Shown in pieces: positions 20,279 to 62,647 of a stretch of DNA of 64,000 nt. The first letter of the stretch is position 1; each line of letters begins with the position of its first letter. The DNA is from a virus, in the IMG/VR virus record IMGVR_UViG_3300024255_000001; one strand, written 5' to 3'. The position numbers were made by a program, and so were the translations under genes. Under the pieces are notes generated by a model. That model was given only the letters and a program-made list of their open reading frames with translations, was not told where the DNA came from and made no database searches.

Positions 20279-20433
20279 TTACACCACTCGAGGAATGCCA
20301 TATTATATGATTCCTCATAAGAATATCCTTCTTTTAAAAGTTTATTAGCCCATTTGGTAACTTCAGCTTTTAAACCATAAGCATTAGCTTCAGCTAGAAT
20401 TTCTTCAATTAATAAATGTTCATCTAAAGTCAT
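20275..20433 (-). CDS. small hypothetical protein (52 aa)
   Basis: Manual translation MTLDEHLLIEEILAEANAYGLK...YNMAFLEWCK; TAATG coupling to rnh. Confidence 0.55.
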   Translation of the reverse strand: MTLDEHLLIEEILAEANAYGLKAEVTKWANKLLKEGYSYEESYNMAFLEWCK

Positions 20434-40350: not shown

Positions 40351-40929
40351 TTATTCTATGATTAATTCACCGATTTGTTTAGAATATGGTTCCTTTTCCC
40401 ATAGATTAATTGCTATTGCCTTTCTAGTACCGCGTGTAACTTGCTGTACTGTATGTGGATCTTGTCCAGCTTGAAATATGATAAATCTATTAGGTCTTGC
40501 TTTGATGATCTCTGGGGTTGATTCTCGGCCATCTGCATATATAGCTAATTCACCGCCATCAAAATCTTGTCCTGGTGGATAATATACACTACCTATTAAT
40601 GGACTTACAACTTCTTTTGTTTTTTGCCACCACGCTTCATCTTTATCAAAATGGATTGGTAGATTATTAATATAACCGTCATTTAGATTATCTGCAGACT
40701 GATGTCCAGTCCAATATTCAAAACCATCTATATTAAATTGCTCGCTAATAGGACAGTGGTCTCCCCAGACATATTGAATTATACGTTGAGTTGTATTTTT
40801 AGCCGGAGTATTCCACCAGCCGCTATACCATTTGTATGCGCCAGGCTCTTTAAAGATCTGACTATAATTCTGTTCTATTTCTTTTAATAGATTTTCATCT
40901 TTAATAAAATTATCAAATACTGCTATCAT
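40351..40929 (-). CDS. 2OG-Fe(II) oxygenase
   Basis: HFDKDE, GGEL, PHTV, RKAIAINLW (HxD...H...R). Confidence 0.8.
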   Translation of the reverse strand: MIAVFDNFIKDENLLKEIEQNYSQIFKEPGAYKWYSGWWNTPAKNTTQRIIQYVWGDHCPISEQFNIDGFEYWTGHQSADNLNDGYINNLPIHFDKDEAWWQKTKEVVSPLIGSVYYPPGQDFDGGELAIYADGRESTPEIIKARPNRFIIFQAGQDPHTVQQVTRGTRKAIAINLWEKEPYSKQIGELIIE

Positions 40930-42779: not shown

Positions 42780-43988
42780 TTAAAATAATGCTGATGCGTA
42801 GATCAGGTTAGTGTCTAATGTTTGTAGTCCAATTGCTTTCAATACTCTATTAAGTGGATCTATCATACATTTTTCAAATTGTGTATCAAAATCAACTTGT
42901 GGTGCAATCTCATAAGGATGCTCACCTGGTAGATACGCATAAACTTCTGAGATTGGTGTTTTACAGTTGTAAATTTTTAACTTCTCACCATTACCAATTA
43001 CTTTATACTTATTCTTATATTTTTGATTTTGATTTAAAATATAATTATAGTAGCCAGCTGCTTTTACGTTAGCTGGACATTTTAGTCCTACTTGAAATTC
43101 AATTTGATCGTCGACAATATACTTCTCAATATTATTAGTTCTACGATTAAATGAAATGTCATCGACATCTGCTAGTTGAAATTCTTTTTTAGATGCTTTC
43201 ATAAATGCAACTAATTCTTGTAATTCTTCAGCACCGGGGGTTTTTTGTGATTTAAACAAAATCCTAAGCGCTTCTACTAATTTCTCTCTAGCAAATTTAG
43301 GAGTTGAGGATTGAATAGTATCAAATCCAATGGTCTTTACTTTCTTTAGAGACTTATGTCTATCAGTAACTTCTAGTTTATCGTCCCAAGCAATGTTTTG
43401 AATATACTTTTTCTTTGACATCCAAATACCATTATATGCTAAAGATTCTAATTCAAAGAATAAGAAGTTATCTGTATTTCTAGAAGAGGCATACTTCTTC
43501 ATACATACTGTAATATAATCCTTAAGTCTAAATGCATAGAATGCTAAGATAAACTCATCAAGTGGTAGAGCTTTAGTGTCATCATTCCAAACAATAGTTT
43601 CATATAGATCTTGAAACTGTACGTAACAAGAATCTGTATCAATATAGATTACTGCAGGCTTTTCAACTTTACCTTTTACTGTTAAGCCGAATTGCTCATG
43701 TACTTTAATATCTTTATGCCAAAACTCTTGACAATACTTATTTAAGATAGACTCAGAGTAGAGGATAGCGTTTTTACCCTGTTTTGTAATAGACTCTGCA
43801 ATATCTATATTAAAGAAGTGAAACCATTTGTTACCGAATGCACCATAGATAGAGTTAAGAGTTAATTTTACTGCTTGTTCATAGGCAGTATATTTAGCAG
43901 ACATCTGCTTGTAGTGATCTACAAGCAGCCCTGCCTCTTCTCTACTAAGTTGATCGATAGGTTTCTCAGTGAGTTTTGTTATATCCAT
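42780..43988 (-). CDS. gp43: family-B DNA polymerase, C-terminal subunit (gp43B)
   Basis: Motif B KLTLNSIYGAFG, motif C YIDTDS, KKKY; no exonuclease domain or motif A. Confidence 0.92.
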   Translation of the reverse strand: MDITKLTEKPIDQLSREEAGLLVDHYKQMSAKYTAYEQAVKLTLNSIYGAFGNKWFHFFNIDIAESITKQGKNAILYSESILNKYCQEFWHKDIKVHEQFGLTVKGKVEKPAVIYIDTDSCYVQFQDLYETIVWNDDTKALPLDEFILAFYAFRLKDYITVCMKKYASSRNTDNFLFFELESLAYNGIWMSKKKYIQNIAWDDKLEVTDRHKSLKKVKTIGFDTIQSSTPKFAREKLVEALRILFKSQKTPGAEELQELVAFMKASKKEFQLADVDDISFNRRTNNIEKYIVDDQIEFQVGLKCPANVKAAGYYNYILNQNQKYKNKYKVIGNGEKLKIYNCKTPISEVYAYLPGEHPYEIAPQVDFDTQFEKCMIDPLNRVLKAIGLQTLDTNLIYASALF

Positions 43989-47871: not shown

Positions 47872-49278
47872 TTAGAGCTTAAATTTTTTTTCGATTTCAT
47901 GCGCTTTTTCATAATATGTATAAGAAGTTTTCTTGTAGTCTTTTCTTTGATCATATAGATCTGCTAAAATCTTTTTAAGAATACTATCTTTCTTCTGATA
48001 TACTACGCCATTCTCACAAACAATTACTGCTTCATCTTTACGACGCTCAGCTATTTGCGATTCCTCTACCATTTCAACGAATGAATCGGGCGAGATATTA
48101 AACTGCCTCATGATGGATGGATATAGCGATGCAAAGTCAAATGCACTTACACCACCATAATATCCAACAATTGGTTGTTTAACAAAAGCACCCTCGTACT
48201 TACTATCCTTCTTACCATCTTCTCTATCGTATTCTACACCGATACGTTTACCCTGTTCGGTTAGTTTACGAGCCATTAGAGATTCGGTAACAGCCACTGG
48301 TGAAGCGGCTTTATATAGTGGCATTCTAGTTATTGTTGCTAAAGTAAGCAGTACTTCCATCGATCTAAGCTTTTGATCGATATAGTAAACTAGACATGAG
48401 TCAACCACATTATAGAAAACATACTTTTGAAAGTCGTTTTCATATAGGTCTTGTAAGCTACCACTATATTGTATTTTACTTATACCCTCAAGGACTGCAC
48501 CAGAAACAAATGCTAATGCATTAGATTCTTTTACTGCAACCGATCTATCATATTTATCGTATAATTGCATGTAGTCCAAAATACCCATGTGAAGCGGGCG
48601 AGAGTCTTTTTTATCAAGAGCGCCAGTACAAGCAACTTCTGTTAAATCAATTTGTAAGATTTTACATCTGTTGACAATATACTGCCAGTCATAATTGATA
48701 AAGTTCCAACCTGTCATCATAGGAAATTTAGGTAAAAACTTATGTAAGAAAGCGTAGACCATGTCATACTCGTTCTTAAATTTGTAATAACTAAATTCCC
48801 AATCAGTATCATACCCATTAAAGTGAGCATTCGTATCGGATTCGATCTTATTAATTTGATCGGCCGAAAGATCTTCTAGTCCAAGCACGATTGCTTTTCT
48901 TTCTGGAGTAATAATAGAAAAGGTTAAGATTCTAGACTTAGCCTCTTCAGGTTTGGGGAAGCCATCAACAATCTCTGTCTCAATATCGACAAAGTATGTT
49001 CGTGGCATATTGAACTCAAAGATTTCATCTTGGTCTTTTTGTGGTAGACCGTCCATGAAATAAAGAAGTGAAAACTTATTAAAAGATCTAGAGATAGACT
49101 TCTTAACATGGCGACCATCCCAGTTTCTAACTGTTGCGTCTTTCCATCTGTCATTATCTTTAGCTACAACCCAGTTTTGAAACTTATCAATGTTGTATCT
49201 TTTAAAGGCAACTTCACCCTGTTTATCGTAATATGATACGATTACTTCTTTCTCTCTTTGTTCAATATCTAATAACAT
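47872..49278 (-). CDS. gp43: family-B DNA polymerase, N-terminal subunit (3'-5' exonuclease + motif A; gp43A)
   Basis: DIET, GWNFINYD, YNVVD exonuclease motifs; YEGAFV, FDFASLYPSIM, NISPD; ends in the first fingers helix. Confidence 0.92.
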   Translation of the reverse strand: MLLDIEQREKEVIVSYYDKQGEVAFKRYNIDKFQNWVVAKDNDRWKDATVRNWDGRHVKKSISRSFNKFSLLYFMDGLPQKDQDEIFEFNMPRTYFVDIETEIVDGFPKPEEAKSRILTFSIITPERKAIVLGLEDLSADQINKIESDTNAHFNGYDTDWEFSYYKFKNEYDMVYAFLHKFLPKFPMMTGWNFINYDWQYIVNRCKILQIDLTEVACTGALDKKDSRPLHMGILDYMQLYDKYDRSVAVKESNALAFVSGAVLEGISKIQYSGSLQDLYENDFQKYVFYNVVDSCLVYYIDQKLRSMEVLLTLATITRMPLYKAASPVAVTESLMARKLTEQGKRIGVEYDREDGKKDSKYEGAFVKQPIVGYYGGVSAFDFASLYPSIMRQFNISPDSFVEMVEESQIAERRKDEAVIVCENGVVYQKKDSILKKILADLYDQRKDYKKTSYTYYEKAHEIEKKFKL

Positions 49279-49742
49279 TAATATCCTCGGTTTTGACGGT
49301 CATGGTTTTCTGCGTTCTTCGCCATGTACAAGTTAACAATATCTTTAGAAGTCATACCAATAGAAATTGCAAAGTTCATATAAAAGTGCAATCCATCGAT
49401 CCATTCATAAAAGAGTTCTAACTTATCTGCCTCTGTCAAATCCTCAATCTTCATGTTCTCTGCTTCTTTGTGTGTGCTTTTCCAATACTTCCAAGCACCA
49501 GAAGCAATACCATCGTTGATACCTCCTAAGGCATCAAACATTTCATTTAGTTCATCACTCATTGCGTGTTTGTTAACACACCAGAAATCTGCAATTTGTT
49601 TTAAGTTCCAACCTGTAAAGTCAAAACCTAAACGCTTTTGTAGTTCTACCTGCTTATTGTAAATCAGGCCTAGTGTGTCATCTGCTTCCGAGTGGAAATC
49701 TTGTACCTCGAGATCGGCACATTTGTTATCTGCGTTCGCCAT
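49278..49742 (-). CDS. dCTPase/dUTPase (T4 gp56 / dimeric dUTPase family)
   Basis: DELNE, WKYWK, EWIDGLHF, YMAKNAENHDRQNRGY. Confidence 0.85.
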   Translation of the reverse strand: MANADNKCADLEVQDFHSEADDTLGLIYNKQVELQKRLGFDFTGWNLKQIADFWCVNKHAMSDELNEMFDALGGINDGIASGAWKYWKSTHKEAENMKIEDLTEADKLELFYEWIDGLHFYMNFAISIGMTSKDIVNLYMAKNAENHDRQNRGY

Positions 49743-49771
49743 ATATTTTTATTTGTATTTTATAGTTAAAA

Positions 49772-50668
49772 TTATTTATCTGTTTCAATTTCTTGTCCCC
49801 AATCTCTATAAGAATCTGTTAACAATTTTGTGTTAATATCTTTTGGTTTGGGATCTCCACCCACATTCCAAAACCAGGCACCAGGACTTCCATGCTTTGT
49901 CATAAACTCCCAAGCCTTCGCATCGTAATTCATAGCCGATGGAAATGGTGGATTATATTGTGGGTCTACATCTTGTGTAAATGCTTTTGGATGTGACCAA
50001 ATAGTTGCAATACCTCTTTCGCCCTTCTTAATATTTCTTGCTACTGCAACTCCATTAAACTTAGCATCAGGCCAAGCTATTTGTAAAGAGCGTTGTAGAA
50101 CGCCAGTGGATATTGCTGACCATACTTCTTCTGGATAACCATGTTTCTCTGCAAGATCATGTGCGACCTTCACAGCGGCTGCTGTAACCAATTCATGGCG
50201 AAGTCCTAAAGGAATAAAAAATGCATTGTTTGACTCTGCCCATTTCTTAGCGTGAGCATTTAAGACTGGCATTGCTGCAATTCTCTTAAATTTCATTTCA
50301 GCTCCCATCTCAACACAAATGGCTTGATGGTCTGAAATCTCTTTTTGACTTGGACTAAATAGTACAAGTTTCTTATTATACTTCTTTGCTAAATAAGCAA
50401 GTGAGATACCTGCAAATCCATATCTAGGTTGGACATAGACTAGAGTATCTTGTTTACAAGTACTAACTAGAATATCTCCAAATCTACACTTAGAACCAAA
50501 ACCCATTAGGTCTTCTCTGACTACTTTAAATCCATCATGGTCTACTAATTGTGGAGCCTCAAATGGATCTTGCCAATCACCTGCTAAATCCAACCATGCC
50601 TGTTTGTTCGGCATCATCAGATTTAGATCCTGGTTCATAAGTAATTCTGTGTGGTTATTATGCGCCAT
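49772..50668 (-). CDS. PLP-dependent enzyme, fold type II
   Basis: VVREDL..GSK (Schiff-base Lys), SAISTG, YDAKAW, FWNVGG. Confidence 0.75.
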   Translation of the reverse strand: MAHNNHTELLMNQDLNLMMPNKQAWLDLAGDWQDPFEAPQLVDHDGFKVVREDLMGFGSKCRFGDILVSTCKQDTLVYVQPRYGFAGISLAYLAKKYNKKLVLFSPSQKEISDHQAICVEMGAEMKFKRIAAMPVLNAHAKKWAESNNAFFIPLGLRHELVTAAAVKVAHDLAEKHGYPEEVWSAISTGVLQRSLQIAWPDAKFNGVAVARNIKKGERGIATIWSHPKAFTQDVDPQYNPPFPSAMNYDAKAWEFMTKHGSPGAWFWNVGGDPKPKDINTKLLTDSYRDWGQEIETDK

Positions 50669-51887
50669 AAAATTCTGCTACTTTTTTCTTATATGCTTCT
50701 ACTGTTATACCAGCTTCTGCAATTATTTTATCATCGGAAGGATGGTGTTTCATTCCATTAAATGTTTCTACTAGCCCTAAGTCTAACATTGCTTTTTGTC
50801 TACCGAATGGATGGTCTTTAATTACTGAAGAATTCCAAACTCCGTCCATATCAATATGTGCGTAGTCAGCTCCTGGTCTCATATAGTTTTCAATCCATCT
50901 AATAAAGTCACATGCTACATCTTCTGCGTTATACGGCAGAGAGCCTGTTTGTTCATATATTTTAGTCATCACTGCATCTAGAAAAGGTTCTGATTTCTTA
51001 CCCTTGCCTTCTACAGGATCTGCTAGATAACCAATACATTCTATTGCATTCGTACCATAGTAGAACATTGAGTCCTTATTAACATACTGTGGAAACCAAT
51101 CTGCTACATCTGCTAAGACTGCTGCATATTGGAATTTATATTGTCTTAATCCGTTTGCAACATTCCAATCAAACATCCATTGGCCCAATTCTCTTAGGTC
51201 TTTCTTACCACCCTCTTCTAAGAACTTAGCCATATCTCTAGCTAAGCGTGGTGCAAATTCACATAGGAAATAATCACCGCCTCTCTTGTAAGTAAACTGA
51301 GGGCCTTCGAACCCCGTCATCCCAACAAAGACTTCCTCGTTTTGCTGTGGAATTGGGGGTTTTGGGAATGCTGGGAATTGATACCCAACTGAAGTGTAGA
51401 ATGGCTTGGTTGCTGCCTTAACCTGCTCACACATTTGTTCTATAGAATCAGATTGCCACAAGTCGAATAGTAGCGTGTTGTGATAGCCGCTAGGCTTGGT
51501 AGCATAGTTAATTGCAGATCCACATACTCTATGCAGTATGAATAAGTAGAGCCATTCTGGTAGGCCGAAGACATCTTGTTTACCAGTCCAGTTGGTAGCG
51601 ACTTCCTTGCGCTGTTCCGTAACTAAACCAGCCTGCATTCTTGGCCAATACGGATGTGCTTCAGTCCAACCGTAAAAAGCATCATTCACGATTTGACTAA
51701 ACCCAGCATACTTCCTTTCAACCACATCATACAGCTCGATATGTTCCATCAGCGGATCGTCCATCCTGGACTCGGCATGTGGAATATGGCCTAGGTTACT
51801 CTTTTTCTGCTGGTCTAAGGCTAACTCATAATACCTGATAAACTCATCATAGTATTTAGTAGTCTTAATTTTACACGTCGTACTCAT
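50658..51887 (-). CDS. putative aGPT-Pplase-like (amino acid:DNA transferase-like) base-modification protein
   Basis: DDPLM...YDVVERKY resembles the DPIL...NVxR motif; helical; overlaps the PLP gene; assignment by recall only. Confidence 0.45.
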   Translation of the reverse strand: MSTTCKIKTTKYYDEFIRYYELALDQQKKSNLGHIPHAESRMDDPLMEHIELYDVVERKYAGFSQIVNDAFYGWTEAHPYWPRMQAGLVTEQRKEVATNWTGKQDVFGLPEWLYLFILHRVCGSAINYATKPSGYHNTLLFDLWQSDSIEQMCEQVKAATKPFYTSVGYQFPAFPKPPIPQQNEEVFVGMTGFEGPQFTYKRGGDYFLCEFAPRLARDMAKFLEEGGKKDLRELGQWMFDWNVANGLRQYKFQYAAVLADVADWFPQYVNKDSMFYYGTNAIECIGYLADPVEGKGKKSEPFLDAVMTKIYEQTGSLPYNAEDVACDFIRWIENYMRPGADYAHIDMDGVWNSSVIKDHPFGRQKAMLDLGLVETFNGMKHHPSDDKIIAEAGITVEAYKKKVAEFYGA

Positions 51888-52053
51888 TCACTTCTAGTAT
51901 TTCCCAATTTAAGGCTCTCCGGTTTCTTTGATATTGTTCCATCGACCATTCAATATTGTCTGTTGTCAACTCAATATTATATGGAGCATCTCCGCGACCG
52001 AAAGTTTTTTCTATTGCAAGATTAGGTGTTATTTTAATTTTATATGTTTTCAT
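51871..52053 (-). CDS. small hypothetical protein
   Basis: 60 aa, WSMEQYQRNR motif. Confidence 0.55.
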   Translation of the reverse strand: MKTYKIKITPNLAIEKTFGRGDAPYNIELTTDNIEWSMEQYQRNRRALNWEILEVNEYDV

Positions 52054-52226
52054 ATTTGGTTGCCAAGTATCTGTCTCGTATTTAATTCAGAAGCTATTGT
52101 AGCCGCTGCCGATAACAGATGATTAAGGTTATGCTTTAATAAACTATCAGAGATATTCTCATCTCCATAAGTCTGTAAACTATTATGTGCAATTTCTACA
52201 CTTTGTTTAATACCGTTTATATCCAT
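52050..52226 (-). CDS. small hypothetical protein (58 aa)
   Basis: Manual translation MDINGIKQSVEIAH...; ATGA overlap with the next gene. Confidence 0.5.
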   Translation of the reverse strand: MDINGIKQSVEIAHNSLQTYGDENISDSLLKHNLNHLLSAAATIASELNTRQILGNQI

Positions 52227-52236
52227 GTTATTATTT

Positions 52237-52401
52237 TTAATTATTCCATCTTCTTAAGATATTCCAAACAATTAATATATTACAAATTATAGCTTGTAAT
52301 ACAATAAGTGTCCTAAACACCGCAACAGCATCTGCCTTTTTATCGTCCTCTCCGGCTTTTTCACCAAGCGCTCTTGCCCAGTACTTCCAAAGCTTTTTCA
52401 T
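52237..52401 (-). CDS. small membrane protein of marine T4-like phages (54 aa)
   Basis: Manual translation MKKLWKYWARALGEKAGEDDKKADAVAVFRT...RRW; one hydrophobic helix. Confidence 0.65.
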   Translation of the reverse strand: MKKLWKYWARALGEKAGEDDKKADAVAVFRTLIVLQAIICNILIVWNILRRWNN

Positions 52402-52403
52402 TT

Positions 52404-53480
52404 TTAGAAAAGTGCTTGAGTTACTGGCTTTAATTTCTGATTGGGTTCATCTTTTGCTAAATCCCAACGATAATACTCACGAGCGATATGAACTGACTTA
52501 GGCTTTTCCATTACGTCAAATGTTAACTCTCCAAAAGAGTTTAAAAAGACTGTTGGGTGTTGCCATGTTGACCATCCATTTCTCTCGCACATTGCTTCTA
52601 CTAACTTGTTAAATTCTTTTACAAGTTCAGTTCTCTCTGCCCAAGTACCAGCAAAAGGAGTACCTTTATAGTAGCCGGTTTTTGGTAGAGGTCTAGACTC
52701 ATTCTCAATTGGAAGAGCCTGAATAACTTCAATATTTTCGATTTCTAAATCGATTAATTGTTTTTCATAATTAGATACCATATCCTTTAAAGATTTCGAT
52801 GGATTATCTTGTCTCATTAGGTGGTGTCTTATATCTATATTCCCTAGATATATGCGTAGTGTTGTAATATTTTCTGGTACATAAGATCTAATACCTCTTC
52901 TTAAAGTTCCAAAAAGAGTTAGGCCATCATGTCTATCAGTCATATAACCAGGTGTATATTGGCTAAAACTATGCGAGTCTCCAAAACAGAGTTTATCTGT
53001 ATTTTGTATTCTATCTACTTTAGGAATACTAGCACATATTGCCTTAGCGTCTTCTATTTGTGTCTCAAGTGTTTTAAAAAGATCTGAACCTGTCTTTAAA
53101 CGTTTCTCAATTAGAGTACCTACACAAGGCATATCATGGTGGAGCGAATACATTCGTATACCGGGAGCGAACATTCTAATGATTTGATGGTATAAGTCAT
53201 CGTTCGCCCCACCGAAGATATTAAAATTGCCTTTAAATTCCATTCCGTGTTCAATAAGAATCACGTCGAAATCGTCTGCCTTCCAAGCTGAGCTATCTGT
53301 AATTACAGAAACACTGAAGTAACCAGCATGTTTTAATTGATTTGCTAGATGGAATGCCCATCCAGATTTATGTGAAGTTAGTTTGCTACTAAGTTTTCCA
53401 ACTAGTGCAGAAATACCGACACGTATATTAGTGTCTTTCTCTAGATCTGAAAAATAGACTAGGTTATTATTTGTCTCCAT
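52404..53480 (-). CDS. SGNH/GDSL-like hydrolase/acyltransferase-fold protein
   Basis: FGDSH (block I), LGNID (block III), SVH (block V). Confidence 0.5.
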   Translation of the reverse strand: METNNNLVYFSDLEKDTNIRVGISALVGKLSSKLTSHKSGWAFHLANQLKHAGYFSVSVITDSSAWKADDFDVILIEHGMEFKGNFNIFGGANDDLYHQIIRMFAPGIRMYSLHHDMPCVGTLIEKRLKTGSDLFKTLETQIEDAKAICASIPKVDRIQNTDKLCFGDSHSFSQYTPGYMTDRHDGLTLFGTLRRGIRSYVPENITTLRIYLGNIDIRHHLMRQDNPSKSLKDMVSNYEKQLIDLEIENIEVIQALPIENESRPLPKTGYYKGTPFAGTWAERTELVKEFNKLVEAMCERNGWSTWQHPTVFLNSFGELTFDVMEKPKSVHIAREYYRWDLAKDEPNQKLKPVTQALF

Positions 53481-53799
53481 ATCCAGCGTTTGCGTCAGTT
53501 AAATTAATTGGCTTTTCAGTTTCACCATAGCCATACTTCTTAATATAATTGTCAAGACCGCCGATGTATGCGACAGCATCTAGAAGATTATCTTCTTTAT
53601 AGTTGTAAGAATGTCTGCTTAATTTAAGTGCGACAAGCGCTGCATACATATCGGAACCTGACCATTCTTTACCGGTCATTCCTGAACAGATCATCGCGGC
53701 ACGTCTCATGCCTTCTTCGAAAGGACCGTACATACGTTCTTTCTCTTCGGATCTGTTGTTAATAATTTCGTCTGCTGTTTTTAGAATGTTCTTGCTCAT
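53467..53799 (-). CDS. DUF6378-like protein (nucleotide-modification associated)
   Basis: ILKTADEII..R...YG....LKLSR...DNLLDAVAY. Confidence 0.65.
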   Translation of the reverse strand: MSKNILKTADEIINNRSEEKERMYGPFEEGMRRAAMICSGMTGKEWSGSDMYAALVALKLSRHSYNYKEDNLLDAVAYIGGLDNYIKKYGYGETEKPINLTDANAGYGDK

Positions 53800-53823
53800 A
53801 AAATAACTAATTAAATCTTAATT

Positions 53824-53852
53824 ATTATAGAGAAGAATGCTAGTTTGTTTCA
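53824..53852 (-). promoter_or_regulatory. putative middle promoter TGAAAC-N17-TATAAT
   Basis: Heads the DUF6378-to-polymerase gene run. Confidence 0.65.
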
Positions 53853-54536
53853 CTAATTAATATTAATATGGACAATAACTTCGTTGTAGTATTCTAGGAA
53901 ACGTTCGTTCCATAGGTTCCATTTAATATCAGTACCATCTATTGCATAAATTTCATGGTTAGGGAAAAGTTTAAGATATAAATCTCTGAACTGTCTGAAT
54001 TTTTCTTTAGTCTCTGGTGTGTTTAAATGCCACTCTCCGACTACAAAATCTACATTATCTTTTATCCAAAATAAATTATCGACGTTAAAAATATCATATT
54101 CTCCTCCTTCGCAATCTGTTTTTAAGAAGTTAATTCTATCAATATTATTTTCTTTTATTAGGGTATCGAACCTAATAGATGGTATTTCTATATTTTGTCC
54201 ATTAGCACCAAATACTTCACTAATAGTAATAGTACCATCTACTGGTCCGATACCCTTTTCAATAATGGTTACATTATCTTGGTACACATTTTCCTTTAGA
54301 GTCTCATGTTCTAAATGAGATGGCTCTACGCAAATAACTTGTTTTGGATCTTTATTAAGAATACTATATGTAAATGGACCGATGCTTGCTCCTATATCTA
54401 AAACCACATCATCGGCTTTTACCTCTCTAACCTGTTCATAACATTTATCAATAAAGATCTCTTGAACTAAAGAGTTTTTATGCATTTTAGCTAGATTGGT
54501 AAATTCGTCCATCCAGCCCCATTTAAAAATAGCCAT
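53853..54536 (-). CDS. FkbM-family SAM-dependent methyltransferase
   Basis: VLDIGASIG, VEP, FLKTDCEGGE, GEWH. Confidence 0.88.
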   Translation of the reverse strand: MAIFKWGWMDEFTNLAKMHKNSLVQEIFIDKCYEQVREVKADDVVLDIGASIGPFTYSILNKDPKQVICVEPSHLEHETLKENVYQDNVTIIEKGIGPVDGTITISEVFGANGQNIEIPSIRFDTLIKENNIDRINFLKTDCEGGEYDIFNVDNLFWIKDNVDFVVGEWHLNTPETKEKFRQFRDLYLKLFPNHEIYAIDGTDIKWNLWNERFLEYYNEVIVHININ

Positions 54537-54558
54537 ATAATTTTATTGGTATTATCTA

Positions 54559-54587
54559 GTTATACTCAAGAATGCTAGTTTGTTTCT
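54559..54587 (-). promoter_or_regulatory. putative middle promoter AGAAAC-N17-TATAAC
   Basis: Shares 19 identical bp with the promoter at 53833-53851. Confidence 0.65.
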
Positions 54588-55498: not shown

Positions 55499-57217
55499 TT
55501 ATAGTGGCCAAATCATGGATGTGCCTGCATCATACCATTCACTATACCACCCTTTTTTATTAAGTTCCTTTTCCCACTTGTTATCTACACCAAACGTTCT
55601 GTTCTTGTAGTCTTCAGAGTAGTAGTCATAAATTACTCTACCCTTATACTCGTCCATATTTTCACCTGAAACCCAGATACCACCTTGAGAACCGTTAAAC
55701 TCTTCAGTAGTTCTTACAAAGTCCATATACTTTTCGATCCACTTAATCATAGCATCTCTATCCAGTTTCTTTTCGGTAACCAATGATTCTGCAAATGCTT
55801 CAATATCCCATTGAATTCTTTGCATTACATCTTCACCTCTAAATTCTTTCTTAGCCCATTGTAATAGACCTGGTTCATGTTTAGCATTTTGTGCCATATC
55901 GAATGCATTCTTCCAACCATCATTAGAAGCTACATCTTCAATCCATTGATCGTATTTCTTTCTATTCCATCTTACTGTCTTAACAGCTTTCTTGTGTGGT
56001 CCGTCTCCTAATGTAGAAGTGGCAGCGTCATAAGAACCTGGAATAAAAACTCCTAAGTCTTTACCGTCACCATATTTAATCTCTTTTCTAAATCTTCTTA
56101 AAGAATATTCACCACCTTCAATTTGCTTTCTTCTTGAAACTTCTCCCTGAGATGTACCGATTGCAATCTTCATATCTTCAGCTTTCTTTGGATCAGTTTC
56201 AAAATGTAAATCTCTTACTGCGTTTTCAAGTAAGGCCTCTTCATAAATTTTGGAGTCTGTCGCCTCTGACATCATTTCCTCTTGAGCGAACTTGTTATAC
56301 TCTTTTGACCACTTCTTCCATTCAGCATCAGTAGCATAGTCTTCTAATACATCGACTACATCTTTATTACCTTTTTGTTCGATAACTTGATCTGCAATCC
56401 ATCTACCTGCTTTTGCGTTTAAGTAGTAAAGTGCTCCGGCATCAGAGAATTTGTAAGCTTCAGTTAACCATGCCATTGCAGAATGCCAACAGTCTTCAAT
56501 ATCTTTACGTCTAAAACCAGCAGTATCTAATGTACCCCAAAAACCATAGGATTCATTAACATCATCAATTGAATATTGATTTTTCTTACCAAACTTAAAT
56601 GCCTCGCTAACCAATGATTCACTTACAAATAAATTAAACTGTGTATATAGATTAAAGTTTTCCATCTCTAATTTCTTTTTTGTTTTATCTTTCTTAGTCT
56701 CTTCCTCGTCATCATCAATATCTGCGACAGCAGGAACATCACCAGAACCTACACCACCATCAGAAGGTAGAACCACAGGGCCCATACCGCCTATATTAGC
56801 ACTAGGTGTAATATTTTGTGCTGCAAGTGCAACATTTTCATCTACTGCAACACCTCGCTTTTTTAAGATCTTTTCAATTTCTTGGTAAGCTTTCTTGTAT
56901 TCCGATTTAGAGTAGTGCATTCCTTTAGCATAGTTAGCATAACCATCTAATGCTCCATTATACATTCCTAGTAATTCTTCATCTGACATACTATTATTAA
57001 ATACAAACGGGCCAATAAATGCTTCATCTACCGTCTCTGGTAAATTATCATGTTTTGTTGAAGCGTATTTCTTTAGATCTTTCTTTGTCATTTCGTCTGA
57101 TAATGATTTTACTTTGTCTCTGTAAGCTGGGTCGATGTCTGAGATTTCCATGTCGCCGGATTTAACAGCGTATGCCATTCCCATTAATCTTTGTTGTGAC
57201 TTACTTACAGAAGGCAT
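55499..57217 (-). CDS. modular protein with N-terminal DUF3008-like domain, probable internal head polyprotein
   Basis: MPSVSKSQQRLMGMAYAVK...ASTKH; repeated VDE/VSE/VNE/LLE/VTE linkers. Confidence 0.55.
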   Translation of the reverse strand: MPSVSKSQQRLMGMAYAVKSGDMEISDIDPAYRDKVKSLSDEMTKKDLKKYASTKHDNLPETVDEAFIGPFVFNNSMSDEELLGMYNGALDGYANYAKGMHYSKSEYKKAYQEIEKILKKRGVAVDENVALAAQNITPSANIGGMGPVVLPSDGGVGSGDVPAVADIDDDEEETKKDKTKKKLEMENFNLYTQFNLFVSESLVSEAFKFGKKNQYSIDDVNESYGFWGTLDTAGFRRKDIEDCWHSAMAWLTEAYKFSDAGALYYLNAKAGRWIADQVIEQKGNKDVVDVLEDYATDAEWKKWSKEYNKFAQEEMMSEATDSKIYEEALLENAVRDLHFETDPKKAEDMKIAIGTSQGEVSRRKQIEGGEYSLRRFRKEIKYGDGKDLGVFIPGSYDAATSTLGDGPHKKAVKTVRWNRKKYDQWIEDVASNDGWKNAFDMAQNAKHEPGLLQWAKKEFRGEDVMQRIQWDIEAFAESLVTEKKLDRDAMIKWIEKYMDFVRTTEEFNGSQGGIWVSGENMDEYKGRVIYDYYSEDYKNRTFGVDNKWEKELNKKGWYSEWYDAGTSMIWPL

Positions 57218-57218
57218 A

Positions 57219-57773
57219 TTATTTTGCGTCTATTTGGATATATTCTGAATCTCTGATTTCAAGATTATTATTACCAACTTGGCTATCATATTCACCATAG
57301 ATAACATCCTTGCTATTTGCTAATGGAGAATTCATCATTCCAGTTTTATCAATCTTCTTGTATAACTTGTTACCGTTAACATCATCCGGGAAACCAACAT
57401 TAATTACCATCTCGTTGTACTTTGCGTAAGATATGTATAAAGCGCCAGAACCGTCTGAACTGTTTAATCCATTGATTTCATCAACTTTCCATTCTTCAGT
57501 TAAGTTAGCTGTTACAAATAATACTGACTCCATGTCTTTTGCTCCTTTTTCAACAGCATCTAAAATAATCTTTTCAGCATCTTTCTTAAAACCGCTCCAT
57601 TCTTTATTAACTTCTTTTAAAGTTGCAGCTGAATCTCCTTCATATTTAACTTTTGCAATTTCTTGTTTAAAGGCTTGCATTACTTTACCTATAATGCCTT
57701 TAGCCGCATAGATTCCTGTCATTCTATATGACTTTTCGTTTAAAAATTGTTCGAATGTTGGGATTGTTTTCAT
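57219..57773 (-). CDS. probable internal head protein
   Basis: N-terminal MKTIPTFEQFLNE. Confidence 0.55.
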   Translation of the reverse strand: MKTIPTFEQFLNEKSYRMTGIYAAKGIIGKVMQAFKQEIAKVKYEGDSAATLKEVNKEWSGFKKDAEKIILDAVEKGAKDMESVLFVTANLTEEWKVDEINGLNSSDGSGALYISYAKYNEMVINVGFPDDVNGNKLYKKIDKTGMMNSPLANSKDVIYGEYDSQVGNNNLEIRDSEYIQIDAK

Positions 57774-57785
57774 ATCTCTATTATA

Positions 57786-60344
57786 TTACCAAGCGTAATC
57801 GAATCCTTCGATTTTAGCTATTTTTTCTTTAAGTGATAAAGCGTAATTCTTAATCTCTCTTTTATACCAAGATTCAGATGAACCAAATCTTTTTTCAGAT
57901 TCTTCTTCTTGTCTAACATAATCACAATATCTAGAATAATCATCTAATATATTTGACATGTGATTAGAAGCATCTCTTAATTTAACCTCTTTTCCTTTTG
58001 CACTTTGACCAATTTTGATTTCATCGTATCTAGTCTTTTCACCACTAGCTAAACCTGTTTTAATTTGATCGGTTAACATATCGATTGCATCTGCTACCAT
58101 TTTATCTAATGGCATTGTTGCAGCCTTAGTAGATAAAATTTGGTGGTATCTGTCGTTGTTAGCTTTCTTAAAATCTTTATCATTAGTAAATGCAATTGCA
58201 CCTGATTTAGCTTCAGCTCTAGCTGCTCTTAATTGGTCAGTAGAATACTTTTGTCTAATTAGGTCTAGGTTAATAACAAGAACTCTATCAGAAACTTCTG
58301 CGATTCTTTTACCATTATTAAGTCCAGTTCCTGACCAGCCTCTGTATTTATGTGATACACCAACTTGGTCATCTTTACCTTTTTTACCGTCTTTCTTAAA
58401 TGCTCTATTTTGTGAGTATCTAGACCAGTCATTAGTATAAAATTCTCTATCGCCAGACATTGCTGCTATTAGAGTACCTCCACCTGGTATAGTTTTTAAA
58501 GCACCATAACCAGCATCATAAGGAGTATATGGATTTTCTTTTTCGTTATCAGATATAAAGAATAGTATATGTTTTGATCCACCATGTTCTTTAAACACCT
58601 TAGTTGGATCATTACTTATTACCATATCCTCATCACCTACTTTATCTAATGCAACTTTAGCTAATTGGTAAAAACCGCCAGCTAATTGCTTTAAATTTTG
58701 CTTACCGTATTTACCTTCTTTGTTACTCATTAGAACGCTAGCTAGTAAGCTGCTGCCTAATGCTTCGTTAAGAAAGTTAGCTCCAACGAAGTCGCTAAAT
58801 GACTCAAACAAGTTTATTTCGTTTTTCATATTTGTATTTGTATTTTCTTCTAGTTTTTTTGCGGCTAAATCTTTATCTCTTTTAGAAACATTATCTAAGT
58901 AGGAACCATCTCCCCAGAATTTAACAACTAATTCAGTTTGAGTAGTTGAATGCATGCCTGGTTTGTAGACTGCAATATCTCTTAGTTTTTTATTAGAAGC
59001 GATAGTTTTCTTCATAAAGTCTAGTGCTTGTTTCTCGTTTCTAAACTTTTTCATAGCACTTACGCCGTCACTATAAATAACTTCATAGTTTTCAGTAATT
59101 GCTGATTCTTCAACATGTAGATTTACATATCTGCTACCTTTTTCTGAGTAAACTGAAGTAATTTTAAAATCACCTTTAATTGATTTACCAGTATCTTGTT
59201 TGTAGTATTTAGCATAATAAGCTTTAAAGAATAAGTTTGGTTCTAGTTCTCCAAAGAAGTGTGACAGTTTACCTACATAAAATTCAGCTTTAGGATATAC
59301 TTTTAAAACATCTTTTTCTGTTTCAGCATCTAGAACTGCTTTATCAAATTCTTTTACAAATTTAGCTTCAGTAACTTCAGATTCTTTAACAACTAATTCT
59401 GCATCTATAGCTACTTCATGTGAAATAGTCTCTAAACCATTAATTAAAATTGTACCATCCTTTTGCATGCCGGTAACTTCACCAGAATCAAAAGGTTTTT
59501 TAGAACTTCTGCTTAGAATAGAAACTCTATCGCCTATTTTAAATTTAGCTTCAGTAACTGATTCATCAATACCTTTGTAAATTAAAGTGTCCCAATGAAC
59601 ATCCTGTACCTCGTCTCTATAATCAGCATATACGTCAACTTCCCAATTACCGCCTTCTTGATCTACTCCCATGAAATAAAGATCTTTACCCTCATTACCG
59701 TGGTCATCAATCGTATCATATTCGTCAAATTCTATTTCGTATTTCTTACCTTTATATTTAACAACAGCACTAGGCCAATCAGATTTTGTAACCTTAATCT
59801 TCTCGTTTACTACTGACTCTTCGATATACTCTCCAAGTTCTGGATCGTCCCATCCATCAGGAGATGCTAAAACTGATTGTAGATCTTCTCTTGAACCTGT
59901 TAGCTCAACTTCTGGCCAACCACTCGGTCCACTAGGATCTAAAACTTTCATTGTAACTTTATGTTTCTTTAAAAGTTTTTTAAGTATCTTTGATTTAGGA
60001 TCCATTGCATCCATAACTACTGTAGCTTCGAATACTTCAGCAGCTTTAGGAGTTTCATCTAGTTCAGCTAGAATTCTACGACCCCATTTTGAAAGCTTTA
60101 CACCCTCTTCAGAAACATTAAAGTACTTTCTATTTCTAGAAGTCCATTGGCTTGAACTAGTAGATAATTCAGAAAGAATCTTGTTAAACTCTTCTCTTGT
60201 CACTACACCGTCTTTAATAGCTTGTAGGACTGCATTTCTTACATTAGCAGTTTTACCTACAGTTTGAGCTGGGTGGTTCTCTGTATATTTTCTTTTGATT
60301 TGCAATTTCTTGCCTTCCGATAAAAAGTCTTCGAATTTCGTCAT
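57786..60344 (-). CDS. modular probable internal head polyprotein
   Basis: N-terminal MTKFEDFLSE; modules separated by ESVVNE, ESVTE, ESEVTE, ESAITE, FLNE. Confidence 0.55.
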   Translation of the reverse strand: MTKFEDFLSEGKKLQIKRKYTENHPAQTVGKTANVRNAVLQAIKDGVVTREEFNKILSELSTSSSQWTSRNRKYFNVSEEGVKLSKWGRRILAELDETPKAAEVFEATVVMDAMDPKSKILKKLLKKHKVTMKVLDPSGPSGWPEVELTGSREDLQSVLASPDGWDDPELGEYIEESVVNEKIKVTKSDWPSAVVKYKGKKYEIEFDEYDTIDDHGNEGKDLYFMGVDQEGGNWEVDVYADYRDEVQDVHWDTLIYKGIDESVTEAKFKIGDRVSILSRSSKKPFDSGEVTGMQKDGTILINGLETISHEVAIDAELVVKESEVTEAKFVKEFDKAVLDAETEKDVLKVYPKAEFYVGKLSHFFGELEPNLFFKAYYAKYYKQDTGKSIKGDFKITSVYSEKGSRYVNLHVEESAITENYEVIYSDGVSAMKKFRNEKQALDFMKKTIASNKKLRDIAVYKPGMHSTTQTELVVKFWGDGSYLDNVSKRDKDLAAKKLEENTNTNMKNEINLFESFSDFVGANFLNEALGSSLLASVLMSNKEGKYGKQNLKQLAGGFYQLAKVALDKVGDEDMVISNDPTKVFKEHGGSKHILFFISDNEKENPYTPYDAGYGALKTIPGGGTLIAAMSGDREFYTNDWSRYSQNRAFKKDGKKGKDDQVGVSHKYRGWSGTGLNNGKRIAEVSDRVLVINLDLIRQKYSTDQLRAARAEAKSGAIAFTNDKDFKKANNDRYHQILSTKAATMPLDKMVADAIDMLTDQIKTGLASGEKTRYDEIKIGQSAKGKEVKLRDASNHMSNILDDYSRYCDYVRQEEESEKRFGSSESWYKREIKNYALSLKEKIAKIEGFDYAW

Positions 60345-60346
60345 GA

Positions 60347-60760
60347 TTATTTTACTTTAATTTTTGCTTGGTGTCCATTAGTTTCAGTGTATTGAAATGA
60401 AAATTTAGACTTTGCAAATAAAGTACCCATTGTAAAAGAAACAAAAGTTCCTTCTGGGTTTTTCATTGCTACGTTATATGCGTCTCCAGCTGCAGCCTCG
60501 TCATCAAAAATACCGATAATATTCTTTGAAGTTGAAGATCCTATTCTAATTTCACCCTGTAGTCTAACAGATTGCCCATTAAAATCTACATTGTTATGTG
60601 CCATTAATAAATACTTAGTTGCACCCTTTTCTGGAAGGTTATCACTATGTTCTCCAAACTCGGTTCTTGTATTAAAGTAATATGAACCAAACGGTATGCT
60701 TTCATTTACTGCTTGATTTGAGCTTTCTCTAAAGCTTTCGAATGATTTTATATTTTTCAT
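60347..60760 (-). CDS. probable internal head protein
   Basis: N-terminal MKNIKSFESFRES...AVNES. Confidence 0.55.
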   Translation of the reverse strand: MKNIKSFESFRESSNQAVNESIPFGSYYFNTRTEFGEHSDNLPEKGATKYLLMAHNNVDFNGQSVRLQGEIRIGSSTSKNIIGIFDDEAAAGDAYNVAMKNPEGTFVSFTMGTLFAKSKFSFQYTETNGHQAKIKVK

Positions 60761-60779
60761 ATTAATATGTTATATTTGT

Positions 60780-62639
60780 TTATATATTCTTTAAAAAATC
60801 ATCGAAGGTTAGGAATTCTGGTTGTGCAGATTCTGCAGCAACTCCCATCGAGTCTTCTAATTTCATTTTTAGTTCTCCGTACATACCATGTATATCCTTA
60901 GGAGTTAATTTCTTAAATAGTCTTTCATCACCATCAAGCATTGCGTTTCTAACCTGAGTTGCTGAGATATTCTTACCTGATCTTGGAATTTCAAATAAAC
61001 CAAAATCGTCTCTTACGCCTAGATCGTCTCTATATTCTTGTTTATCTGCTTGATAACTATAGACTTTCATTCTATCGGTTCCAGTTCCCCATAATACTGG
61101 CTCGTATTGCGGTCTTAATTCATTAAACATTTTATCAATTGCTGCAGTAGGTAAAATCTTTACATCTTCAATTGGATATGAAGATTTTAATTTTTGTAAC
61201 ATTGATAGTTGAGTATCTTCATCATAAGGTCTCTTAAATGCATCTTCTGCTTTCTTAGTTCTAGACTTAATTAAAAAGATAACTACTGGATAACCGTTTT
61301 GTTTATAGATAGTTTCAATAACTTTAGCATGGCCTAATGTAAATGGCTGGAATCTACCAACAAACATATTTACAGGCTTCTTACCTTGATCTTTATACTT
61401 AACAGTTAAGCCTTCCATGATTGGACTGACTTGAGCTGAAATTTTTTGGTTTAATAAATATTGTTTAAAATCCATTACGTCTGATTCATTTGCTTTTGCC
61501 ATTATTAAACCCTCAATGGTTTCAACGATCTCGTTGATCTGCTCCATTAAATCTTTATTAATAAGGTCAGTTTCTTTAGTTCTCTTTTTTCTAAAAGAGC
61601 CTAATACAATTTTAAATAACTCAGATAGTATCTTATCTTGTACTAAAGTAAGTGTCTTTTCGTTTTGAATAAACTTATTGTTTAATTCAAACATAGGAGA
61701 TTCAGAGAAGTCTGCGGAGTCAAATTTAGCACCAATATATTTTGTAGCATTTTTTTCTACATAATTATTAAAAATAGATGACATTAATTCTAAATATCTT
61801 CTATCTGTCTTTTCTTCTTTTAATTCTATTGATGAGAAATCAAATTGTGCTAAATGTTCTACAACATCTAAAATTGTAATTTGATACATGTCTGATGGTT
61901 TTCTTGGATCCATCTGTTTTTTATTAAACTTCTCTAATTTAAAAGATTGTAATTCTGTTCCGTCATGAAAATTAACAATAAACCCTGCAACATCTTTTGA
62001 AAGATCGTTCATTAAAGCAGATTGCTTCATATTCCCATTGAAAATACCGAATACTGTTCTTGTAAAGCTAGGCTTCTCAAAGTCTTCAAACGTCTGTTCA
62101 AATTCATTAACCGACATTGCAAGAATTTGTTTTAATCTATCCTTTTGACCTGAGTCAAGTTGACCTTCAAATAATATAGGTGGTTTTGAAACATTTAGTT
62201 TATTCGCCCACTTATTAAGTATCTTGGTATCTCTAATTACCTTTCTAACTTTATTAGGATTGGATGGTTGTAAAACTTGTATATGCGTTAAAATTAAATT
62301 TGATTCTGGTAAAACATCATACTCCACATCAATTGTTTTATTATCGCCAAGATATTCAAATCCAAACTTCCAGTCAAATGGCATATCTTCTATAACTTCT
62401 TTAGAAACAGACTTAAAGTGGCGAATTGCGTTCTCGTAGTATCTGACGATTGTACGATCTACTATATCCATTGGTTGCTTAGAACCAGATTTATAGTATG
62501 CAAAATCAGTACCTTGTCTTCTTGCATGAAAAGATGAACCGTTGATTTTCTCAGTCACAATACATTTGTGGCTAAGTAGTTTATCAACGTCTGCTGTGTT
62601 AGCTCCTTCGAAATATGTTTTTAAATTGTCTAATGCCAT
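60780..62639 (-). CDS. RNA-ligase-like domain fused to HIGH-family nucleotidyltransferase
   Basis: TEKINGSS (motif I), FGFEY, AGFIV, SFK; C-terminal GRFQPFTLGH, GTDR, ISATQVR. Confidence 0.7.
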   Translation of the reverse strand: MALDNLKTYFEGANTADVDKLLSHKCIVTEKINGSSFHARRQGTDFAYYKSGSKQPMDIVDRTIVRYYENAIRHFKSVSKEVIEDMPFDWKFGFEYLGDNKTIDVEYDVLPESNLILTHIQVLQPSNPNKVRKVIRDTKILNKWANKLNVSKPPILFEGQLDSGQKDRLKQILAMSVNEFEQTFEDFEKPSFTRTVFGIFNGNMKQSALMNDLSKDVAGFIVNFHDGTELQSFKLEKFNKKQMDPRKPSDMYQITILDVVEHLAQFDFSSIELKEEKTDRRYLELMSSIFNNYVEKNATKYIGAKFDSADFSESPMFELNNKFIQNEKTLTLVQDKILSELFKIVLGSFRKKRTKETDLINKDLMEQINEIVETIEGLIMAKANESDVMDFKQYLLNQKISAQVSPIMEGLTVKYKDQGKKPVNMFVGRFQPFTLGHAKVIETIYKQNGYPVVIFLIKSRTKKAEDAFKRPYDEDTQLSMLQKLKSSYPIEDVKILPTAAIDKMFNELRPQYEPVLWGTGTDRMKVYSYQADKQEYRDDLGVRDDFGLFEIPRSGKNISATQVRNAMLDGDERLFKKLTPKDIHGMYGELKMKLEDSMGVAAESAQPEFLTFDDFLKNI

Positions 62640-62647
62640 AATAGTTT

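What the first reader, a model, noticed from the sequence alone, without database searches (positions are those of the whole stretch)
47872..54587. Candidate new DNA base-hypermodification operon co-transcribed with the polymerase
Seen: one promoter (53824-53852) heads a tightly packed, partly overlapping run of DUF6378-like, SGNH-like, three small genes, aGPT-Pplase-like, PLP fold-II enzyme, dCTPase/dUTPase and polymerase N-half. An FkbM methyltransferase sits just upstream. Known: in thymidine-hypermodifying phages (ViI, M6 types) an aGPT-Pplase amino acid:DNA transferase pairs with a PLP enzyme, and a dNTP pyrophosphatase removes the competing canonical nucleotide. Inferred: this is such a pathway with a divergent transferase and extra tailoring candidates (SGNH acyl transfer or removal, FkbM methylation), so the product may be an undescribed base. 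No hydroxymethylase or 5-hmU kinase is visible in this window.
Basis: partly seen in the sequence, partly recalled or inferred. Interest (0 to 1): 0.85.

Follow-up and report, generated by a model that had tools for sequence, protein, structure and literature searches.

The report
Kinase-less cytosine DNA hypermodification cassette
A marine T4-like phage carries a conserved gene set related to the enzymes that attach amino acids to thymine in other phages' DNA, but here the set is tied to hydroxymethylcytosine and has an unusual glucosyltransferase-esterase hybrid instead of the usual DNA kinase, so its DNA probably carries a cytosine modification nobody has yet described.

Summary
The gene run is real and conserved. 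The 409-aa protein folds like the amino acid:DNA transferase PaMx11 gp46 (Z 9.1) and keeps its E-x-x-x-C active-site motif. The PLP enzyme is related to M6 gp52. (1) The target is probably cytosine, not thymine: relatives encode ordinary ThyA plus a dCMP-hydroxymethylase-type enzyme, and no 5-hmdU kinase was found in nine records carrying the module. (2) The 358-aa gene is core, not an extra. It joins a T4 beta-glucosyltransferase-like N-domain to an SGNH domain, ends in the same xALF tail as the polymerase, and is fused to the 409-aa protein in seven homologs. (3) FkbM is optional, and the dCTPase-polymerase pair has its own promoter. Best model: the hybrid acylates 5-hydroxymethylcytosine to make a leaving group, the transferase swaps in an amino acid, and the PLP enzyme decarboxylates it. 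All chemistry is inferred, and this phage's own hydroxymethylase was not seen directly. No paper was found describing the system. This scan has noted it before on other genomes. New variant of a known kind; interest 0.7.

The parts
50658..51887 (-). 409-aa divergent amino acid:DNA transferase-like (aGPT-Pplase, HhH-glycosylase-like fold) protein; putative active site E322-D323-x-x-C326 (about 50924-50910)
   Evidence: AF2 model pLDDT 84.5; best PDB match 8z2m PaMx11 gp46, Z 9.1, rmsd 4.0, 209 aligned; viral fold hits are AADT-domain and aGPT-Pplase1 proteins; E322 and C326 invariant in 53 remote homologs of 23-68% identity
52404..53480 (-). 358-aa hybrid: T4 beta-glucosyltransferase-like N-domain (res ~16-158) + SGNH domain (res ~160-347; S169, G186, N214, H331) + C-terminal xALF tail, a probable clamp-binding peptide
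   Evidence: Model pLDDT 92.3; SGNH Z 12.9; N-domain vs BGT hhalign Prob 94, pairwise E 1e-7, score 49.8 vs shuffles 24.5 +/- 3.5; 114/114 close homologs end in xLF and the polymerase C-half ends SALF; fused to the 409-aa family in 7 proteins
49772..50668 (-). 298-aa fold-type II PLP enzyme related to M6 gp52 (decarboxylase of the DNA-bound amino acid); PLP lysine K60
   Evidence: PF00291; phrog_7093; family vs M6 gp52 hhalign Prob 96, E 5e-9, K60 conserved and aligned to a Lys
49278..49742 (-). 154-aa T4 gp56-type dCTPase/dUTPase
   Evidence: 36% identity over 100 aa to T4 gp56, E 2e-23; PF08761
53467..53799 (-). 110-aa DUF6378 protein, a frequent companion of the hybrid gene; role unexplained
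   Evidence: PF19905; within 5 kb in 9 of 13 de-replicated loci
51871..52401 (-). Three small ORFs (54, 58, 60 aa), variably present; probably not part of the chemistry
   Evidence: patchy in relatives; the 54-aa ORF is phrog_1679, unknown function
53853..54536 (-). 227-aa FkbM-family methyltransferase, an optional insertion with its own promoter
   Evidence: PF05050; absent at this place in 49 IMG/VR loci; present in near-identical strains L051-L054; distant FkbM genes (~30%) lie inside a sister lineage's cluster
47872..49278 (-). N-terminal half of a split family-B DNA polymerase
   Evidence: phrog_2062 and phrog_262
42780..43988 (-). C-terminal half of the polymerase (outside the finding), ending in SALF like the hybrid protein
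   Evidence: phrog_1918
53825..53850 (-). AAAC-N17-TATAA promoter-like site heading DUF6378 to PLP; shares an exact 18-bp stretch with the FkbM site
49760..49785 (-). Second AAAC-N17-TATAA site directly before dCTPase and polymerase-N
54560..54585 (-). AAAC-N17-TATAA site before FkbM

Best explanation
The cassette hypermodifies 5-hydroxymethylcytosine (hmC) in the phage's own DNA, behind the replication fork, without a DNA kinase. Step 1 (genes shown in close relatives, inferred for this genome): a gp42-type dCMP hydroxymethylase elsewhere in the genome makes hm-dCMP, the gp56-type enzyme clears dCTP, and ordinary ThyA supplies normal thymine. Step 2 (domains shown, reaction inferred): the 358-aa hybrid rides the sliding clamp by its xALF tail, finds hmC with its BGT-like domain, and uses its SGNH Ser-His site to acylate the 5-CH2OH, making an ester leaving group in place of the kinase's phosphate. 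Step 3 (fold and motif shown, reaction inferred from gp46/gp51): Cys326 of the 409-aa protein adds to C6, the ester leaves, and a small nucleophile, most likely an amino acid, captures the exocyclic methylene. Step 4 (homology shown, reaction inferred): the PLP enzyme decarboxylates the adduct, leaving an aminoalkyl-type group on C5-methylcytosine. Likely purpose: protection from host nucleases. My odds: DNA base modification about 0.88; on cytosine about 0.8; all three enzymes in one pathway on hmC about 0.6; this exact order with ester activation about 0.35-0.4.
For: Fold and catalytic motif of the transferase (gp46 uses E243-T244-x-x-C247, PMC11472151). Hybrid and transferase are fused in 7 proteins, and a PLP gene lies next to 4 of the 5 fusions looked up; the fifth contig ends there. 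Of 49 loci, 45 have the hybrid and 42 the PLP gene nearby (mostly close kin). TS-family genes beside the module have Asp at the T4 D179 position; the one exception is an ordinary ThyA. G004 (86% relative) has ThyA plus the Asp-type enzyme. These enzymes keep D169, so they are not 5-hydroxy-dCMP synthases, and they share T4's Asp three residues before the catalytic Cys (criteria in PMC13326640). PF18748 kinase: 0 of 9 module records, found in the M6 control. BGT-like domain. Clamp-type tail. A sister lineage pairs the same hybrid with a different aGPT-Pplase-fold protein and inositol genes, so hybrid + transferase looks like the constant core and the cargo genes vary.
Against: No chemistry has been shown. 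This phage's own hydroxymethylase was not seen, because no whole genome is held; the link rests on relatives and a matching contig length. The fold match is modest (Z 9.1 for a helical protein; queuine-salvage and AGOG enzymes score 7.5-7.9), with no sequence-level match to M6 gp51 or to any PDB chain. The SGNH site lacks the canonical D-x-x-H: K328 stands there and an invariant E325 lies three residues further back. The BGT catalytic Asp100 position is not invariant. The two complete kinase-free genomes belong to the sister lineage; the best genome with the 409-aa family is 88% complete. Tenacibaculum phage PTm1 has the hybrid but no detectable transferase. Some loci (L106, L107, L109) have no PLP gene nearby.
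Confidence: 0.6

Rival explanations
1. Same target (hmC), different order. The hybrid's acyl group is part of the final base: either it acylates the amine left after decarboxylation, as PaMx11's acetyltransferase gp48 does, or it acylates hmC as a parallel end product. The transferase then acts on unactivated hmC or after an unrecognised activator.
For: SGNH proteins include O-acetyltransferases (PatB, OatA among the fold hits). PTm1 has the hybrid, a D169N-type TS homolog and no detectable transferase. In G002 the hybrid lies about 75 kb from the transferase. L152 has a small P-loop protein beside the fusion.
Against: Hydroxide is a poor leaving group, and characterised AADTs need prior phosphorylation (PMC8989533). 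The hybrid also accompanies the inositol lineage, where no amine is expected. A BGT-like domain points to the free CH2OH as its target.
Confidence: 0.22
2. A thymidine hypermodification pathway of the M6/ViI type, on 5-hmdU with a kinase elsewhere in the genome.
For: All characterised AADT + PLP pairs act on 5-hmdU. gp56-type enzymes also cleave dUTP. This genome could not be searched.
Against: Relatives keep ordinary ThyA, and their second TS has Asp, not the Asn of M6's dUMP hydroxymethylase. No PF18748 kinase in 9 records.
Confidence: 0.07
3. Not base hypermodification. The 409-aa protein is a repair glycosylase or nucleoside-salvage hydrolase, and the SGNH, PLP and FkbM genes are unrelated auxiliary or glycan-tailoring genes.
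For: The next fold hits are queuine-salvage hydrolases and 8-oxoG glycosylases (Z 6.5-7.9). Sugar-pathway genes (GT2, epimerase, DAHP/KDO8P synthase family) occur near some homologs.
Against: The best hit is an AADT and E-x-x-x-C is invariant. Fusions join hybrid and transferase. The hybrid has a BGT-like domain and the polymerase's tail. The linkage to dCMP-type TS and dCTPase recurs across distant phages.
Confidence: 0.1

Closest known systems
Thymidine hypermodification pathways of phages M6, ViI, PaMx11 and PhiW-14 (5-HMUDK kinase + AADT/aGPT-Pplase2 + PLP decarboxylase; PMC8989533, PMC11472151)
   Same: HhH-like transferase fold with E-x-x-x-C; PLP enzyme related to M6 gp52; often a second transferase paralog (about 360 aa in many relatives); linkage to a TS-family hydroxymethylase.
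   Different: The TS partner is dCMP-type and ThyA is kept; no 5-HMUDK was found; a BGT-SGNH hybrid is the fused partner; the transferase is outside Pfam ADDT and HMUDK_hel by sequence.
T4 glucosyl-hmC pathway (gp42, gp56, beta-glucosyltransferase)
   Same: dCMP-hydroxymethylase-type enzyme (in relatives), gp56-type dCTPase, BGT-like N-domain with the NxFGG loop.
   Different: BGT's nucleotide-sugar-binding C-domain is replaced by an SGNH domain; there is a transferase and PLP enzyme instead of sugar transfer.
Aeromonas phage 44RR2.8t ORF233c and homologs in Aeromonas phages 31 and 25 (hypothetical proteins)
   Same: Same hybrid as the N-half (about 34% identity); genome has td plus gp42; the protein ends in an SLDGLF tail.
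   Different: The C-half is an aGPT-Pplase1-like domain (weak PF18723), not the 409-aa family; the neighbour is a sodium:solute symporter, not a PLP gene. I found no report of its base.
SGNH/GDSL hydrolases and O-acetyltransferases (PatB, OatA-C)
   Same: Fold; Ser, Gly, Asn and His of the four blocks.
   Different: No D-x-x-H; joined to a DNA-acceptor-like domain; predicted substrate is DNA.

Membership tests
AADT / aGPT-Pplase2 (PF18724) | All-helical HhH-glycosylase-like fold of gp46 | tested here: met
   8z2m is the top hit of 48,161 chains, Z 9.1, rmsd 4.0, 209 aligned; modest for a helical fold, and backed
AADT / aGPT-Pplase2 (PF18724) | Catalytic Glu and Cys, E-x-x-x-C | tested here: met
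   E322/C326 invariant in 53 remote homologs, 99%/97% in 70; same spacing as gp46 E243/C247. The residue-level superposition was not printed; the aligned ranges fit.
AADT / aGPT-Pplase2 (PF18724) | Sequence match to the Pfam model | tested here: not met
   No hit for the window protein; 1 of 53 remote members at E 1e-3; no alignment to M6 gp51
AADT / aGPT-Pplase2 (PF18724) | Transfers an amine or hydroxyl nucleophile to an activated C5-methyl in DNA | not testable with these tools
   Needs an enzyme assay
Thymidine hypermodification pathway (M6/ViI type) | 5-hmdU DNA kinase (PF18748) in the genome | tested here: inconclusive
   0 of 9 module-bearing records, positive in M6; own genome not held, and the best record with the 409-aa family is 88% complete
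Thymidine hypermodification pathway (M6/ViI type) | dUMP hydroxymethylase (Asn at E. coli 177) in place of ThyA | tested here: not met
   Relatives have ThyA plus an Asp-type enzyme; M6 gp58 has Asn. Tested in relatives only.
Thymidine hypermodification pathway (M6/ViI type) | PLP enzyme of the gp52/gp226 kind | tested here: met
   hhalign Prob 96, E 5e-9, Lys aligned; decarboxylase activity not tested
T4-type hmC pathway | dCMP hydroxymethylase signature (N177D, D169 kept, Asp three before the Cys) | tested here: met
   120/120 homologs of G004's enzyme have KDFVCT and RSND...D; met in relatives, not seen in the window
T4-type hmC pathway | gp56-type dCTPase | tested here: met
   36% identity to gp56, E 2e-23; dCTP versus dUTP preference cannot be told from sequence
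T4 beta-glucosyltransferase | N-terminal acceptor domain with NxFGG loop | tested here: met
   hhalign Prob 94, 93 columns, 0 of 100 shuffles reach the score; pairwise only, with no control against other GT-B domains, and not recovered by whole-model fold search
T4 beta-glucosyltransferase | C-terminal nucleotide-sugar-binding domain | tested here: not met
   Residues 160-347 are SGNH
T4 beta-glucosyltransferase | Catalytic base Asp100 (role from my own knowledge) | tested here: inconclusive
   Aligns to D116, but that column is not invariant
SGNH/GDSL hydrolase | Fold and the Ser, Gly, Asn, His blocks | tested here: met
   Z 12.9; GDSH 200/200, GNID 199/200, ME...SVH 199/200
SGNH/GDSL hydrolase | Triad acid in D-x-x-H | tested here: not met
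   K328 at that place; invariant E325 and S329 nearby
HhH DNA glycosylases / queuine salvage hydrolases | Catalytic Asp/Lys of glycosylases | not tested
   Fold hits of Z 5-7.9 only

The most novel reading that the evidence does not exclude
These phages activate hmC in DNA by ester formation, using a clamp-tethered BGT-SGNH hybrid, and then substitute it with a Cys-dependent transferase. This would give a cytosine base not yet described (an amino-acid-derived group here, a polyol such as inositol in a sister lineage) and a kinase-free, sugar-donor-free route to DNA hypermodification that is widespread in aquatic phages.
Probability: 0.35. Interest if true: 0.88.

Novelty: new variant of a known kind. 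Interest (0 to 1): 0.7.

Why it matters
Characterised amino acid:DNA transferases act on phosphorylated hydroxymethyluracil, and the hmC decorations I know of are sugars. A transferase pathway on cytosine with an acyl-type activator would add a new base class and new activation chemistry. The module is common: 930 homolog clusters of the transferase, and this stretch is held by runs from 19 studies, nearly all labelled seawater or marine. It bears on how marine phages evade restriction and CRISPR, and on sequencing bias against modified genomes. It could also give enzymes for labelling 5hmC. It is directly testable, since cultured Aeromonas phages 44RR2.8t, 31 and 25 carry the sister version.

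Tried and rejected
Own genome not held; the nearest virus record is 14% complete and has no TS; L051's contig could not be searched. No cultured phage matches the 409-aa protein or its paralog by tblastn. Sequence searches of PDB gave nothing useful. Complex prediction for the 409-aa and 358-aa proteins returned no verdict and is not used either way. The sigma-70 scan was at chance level. Metatranscriptome contigs cover most of 48777-54266 in one run and one bridges the FkbM/DUF6378 boundary, but contigs cannot show strand, level or a single transcript. Literature searches for SGNH with cytosine hypermodification, AADT with hmC, Aeromonas phage unknown modification, and inositol with hmC found no description. 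The Iyer/Aravind 2013 paper could not be retrieved, so an earlier computational mention is not excluded. Rejected: FkbM as a core gene; 5-hydroxy-dCMP chemistry for this lineage (D169 kept); the window's 2OG oxygenase as a TET-like source of hmC (it matches PF13640 and no TET/JBP model; not tested further).
Full report
Setting. The window is part of a T4-like myovirus (portal, capsid, sheath, clamp loader, UvsX) with a split family-B polymerase, from seawater. No whole genome is held, so genome-level questions were put to relatives.

Observation. The promoter belongs to a real motif class, AAAC-N17/18-TATAA: 12 minus-strand copies against 3.0 +/- 1.9 in shuffles (I took the motif from earlier notes and tested it). 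There are three copies in the region: before FkbM, before DUF6378, and before dCTPase/polymerase. So 'one promoter, co-transcribed with the polymerase' is too simple. The FkbM and DUF6378 sites share an exact 18-mer. At this place FkbM occurs only in near-identical strains, which suggests a recent insertion (inference).

The 409-aa protein. It has no Pfam or PHROG match but 930 homolog clusters. Its model (pLDDT 84.5) best matches PaMx11 gp46, the solved amino acid:DNA transferase (Z 9.1, rmsd 4.0, 209 residues), followed by HhH-type glycosylases and salvage hydrolases. Viral and atlas searches give AADT-domain and aGPT-Pplase1 proteins. gp46 uses E243-T244-x-x-C247, with Cys attacking C6 (PMC11472151). 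Here E322-D323-x-x-C326 is among nine invariant positions in 53 homologs of 23-68% identity. It works like an AADT by fold and motif but is not a member by sequence. Many relatives carry a second, distant paralog between it and the PLP gene; this phage lacks one at that place.

The 358-aa protein. Residues 160-347 form an SGNH domain (Z 12.9) with Ser169, Gly186, Asn214 and His331 conserved, but without D-x-x-H. The N-domain aligns with the N-domain of T4 beta-glucosyltransferase, including the NxFGG loop: Prob 94, score 49.8 against 24.5 +/- 3.5 for shuffles. This is a pairwise profile result without a GT-B control. From my own knowledge, that BGT domain binds hmC-containing DNA. All 114 close homologs end in xLF; the polymerase C-half ends SALF, this protein QALF, and T4 gp43 SLDFLFG. 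Only four of 53 window proteins end in LF. The T4 tail is a known clamp-binding peptide (own knowledge), so the protein probably works at the fork. Seven proteins found with the 409-aa profile are fusions of the two.

The PLP enzyme is related to M6 gp52 (Prob 96), which decarboxylates a DNA-bound amino acid (PMC8989533). It lies beside four of five fusions examined. Its nearest cultured homologs are fused to or annotated as DNA methylases, one of them beside ParB genes.

Which base. E. coli ThyA position 177 helps define dUMP or dCMP specificity, and D169N marks 5-hydroxy-dCMP synthases (PMC13326640). The TS-family genes next to the module have Asp at 177 and keep D169; the only exception is an ordinary ThyA. 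G004, with an 86% identical transferase, has both ThyA and the Asp-type enzyme. A 64% homolog of the latter, 4 kb from ThyA, comes from the same study and lists the same longest contig, 177,339 bases, as the locus that is 92.5% identical to the window. That contig was not displayed, so this link is strong but indirect. The cassette's dNTPase is gp56-like. The 5-hmdU kinase model found nothing in nine module-bearing records and found M6's kinase. Cytosine is therefore the likely target.

A sister lineage. In loci L113-L131 the hybrid sits between a dCMP-type TS gene and an inositol-1-phosphate synthase, a small protein with a DxD phosphatase-like motif (no Pfam hit), sometimes FkbM, and an aGPT-Pplase1-like protein with E-x-x-x-C. 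That protein is up to 43% identical to the C-half of Aeromonas phage 44RR2.8t ORF233c, where it is fused to the hybrid beside a sodium:solute symporter in a genome with td and gp42. The constant core is hybrid plus HhH-fold transferase; the genes that could supply or trim the cargo vary. PTm1 is a counter-example: it has the hybrid, a D169N-type TS homolog, and no detectable transferase.

Mechanism. Known AADTs need a leaving group on the C5 methyl, supplied by a kinase. Here the kinase was not found, and the fused partner has an hmC-acceptor-like domain joined to an acyl-transfer fold. The simplest reading is acylation of the CH2OH, Cys-mediated displacement by an amino acid, then decarboxylation. 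Folds, motifs, fusions and linkage are shown; every reaction, the acyl donor and the cargo are inferred. The main rival keeps the acyl group in the final base (0.22). Thymidine chemistry (0.07) and a non-modification reading (0.10) fit worse.

Novelty. No paper was found, though the 2013 computational survey could not be read. I reached the cytosine, kinase-less reading and the BGT idea before opening earlier notes (notebook; reading stated). Those notes report the same system on other genomes and are not independent evidence. Verdict: new variant of a known kind, interest 0.7.

Noticed in passing
window 47872-49278 and 42780-43988: The polymerase is split into two genes separated by nrdB, nrdA and a 247-aa putative sliding clamp (clamp identity not tested by HMM).
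   Followed up: partly
L113-L131, e.g. L126:8451-14837: Sister cluster: dCMP-type TS, DUF6378, dUTPase, hybrid, inositol-1-phosphate synthase, optional FkbM, DxD-motif small protein, aGPT-Pplase1-like protein; suggests an inositol-bearing base. L126 adds a C5-methylase-like gene.
   Followed up: partly
L050:5468-9448 (Aeromonas phage 44RR2.8t): Hybrid fused to an aGPT-Pplase1-like domain next to a sodium:solute symporter, possibly importing the cargo; a cultured test case. The genome also encodes a serine hydroxymethyltransferase (PMC1524935).
   Followed up: partly
L166:7781-8800 and L169 (Tenacibaculum phage PTm1): The hybrid gene lies between nrdA and nrdB with no detectable transferase; the genome's second TS homolog reads RSNN...D, the D169N signature of 5-hydroxy-dCMP synthases.
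   Followed up: partly
L018:11212-11883, L041:12095-12817, L047:654-1373, L012:12594-13175: Different genes insert within the cassette in relatives: LOG/SLOG family, a GT2 glycosyltransferase, another FkbM. They may be optional tailoring genes.
   Followed up: no
L152:4110-4646: 178-aa P-loop protein, weakly thymidylate-kinase-like, between the fusion/PLP genes and the TS gene; probably a dNMP kinase, but a DNA kinase is not excluded.
   Followed up: partly
window 20433-21698 and 38568-39002: An exonuclease and an unknown 144-aa protein also end in KKLF, so they may be clamp partners.
   Followed up: no
window about 51290-51355 (409-aa protein, residues ~178-198): Low-confidence variable loop that keeps a hydrophobic-Phe motif in most close homologs and is absent in more distant ones; possibly an internal clamp-binding site.
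   Followed up: partly
window 40351-40929: 2OG-Fe(II) oxygenase (PF13640) between UvsX and the helicase.
   Followed up: no
window 55499-63919: Large acidic, Glu-rich proteins that vary between relatives (one has DUF3008, one a CTP-transferase-like domain in L051); they look like internal head cargo.
   Followed up: no
window 1-64000: CpG is under-represented (observed/expected 0.63), the lowest of all dinucleotides; cause unknown.
   Followed up: no
L151 (Erythrobacter phage R6L gp1), L150:4378-6696 (Microcystis phage Mae-JY30): The nearest cultured homologs of the PLP enzyme lie within a long gene annotated as a DNA methylase, or beside ParB/sulfiredoxin genes, hinting at other DNA-modification uses.
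   Followed up: no
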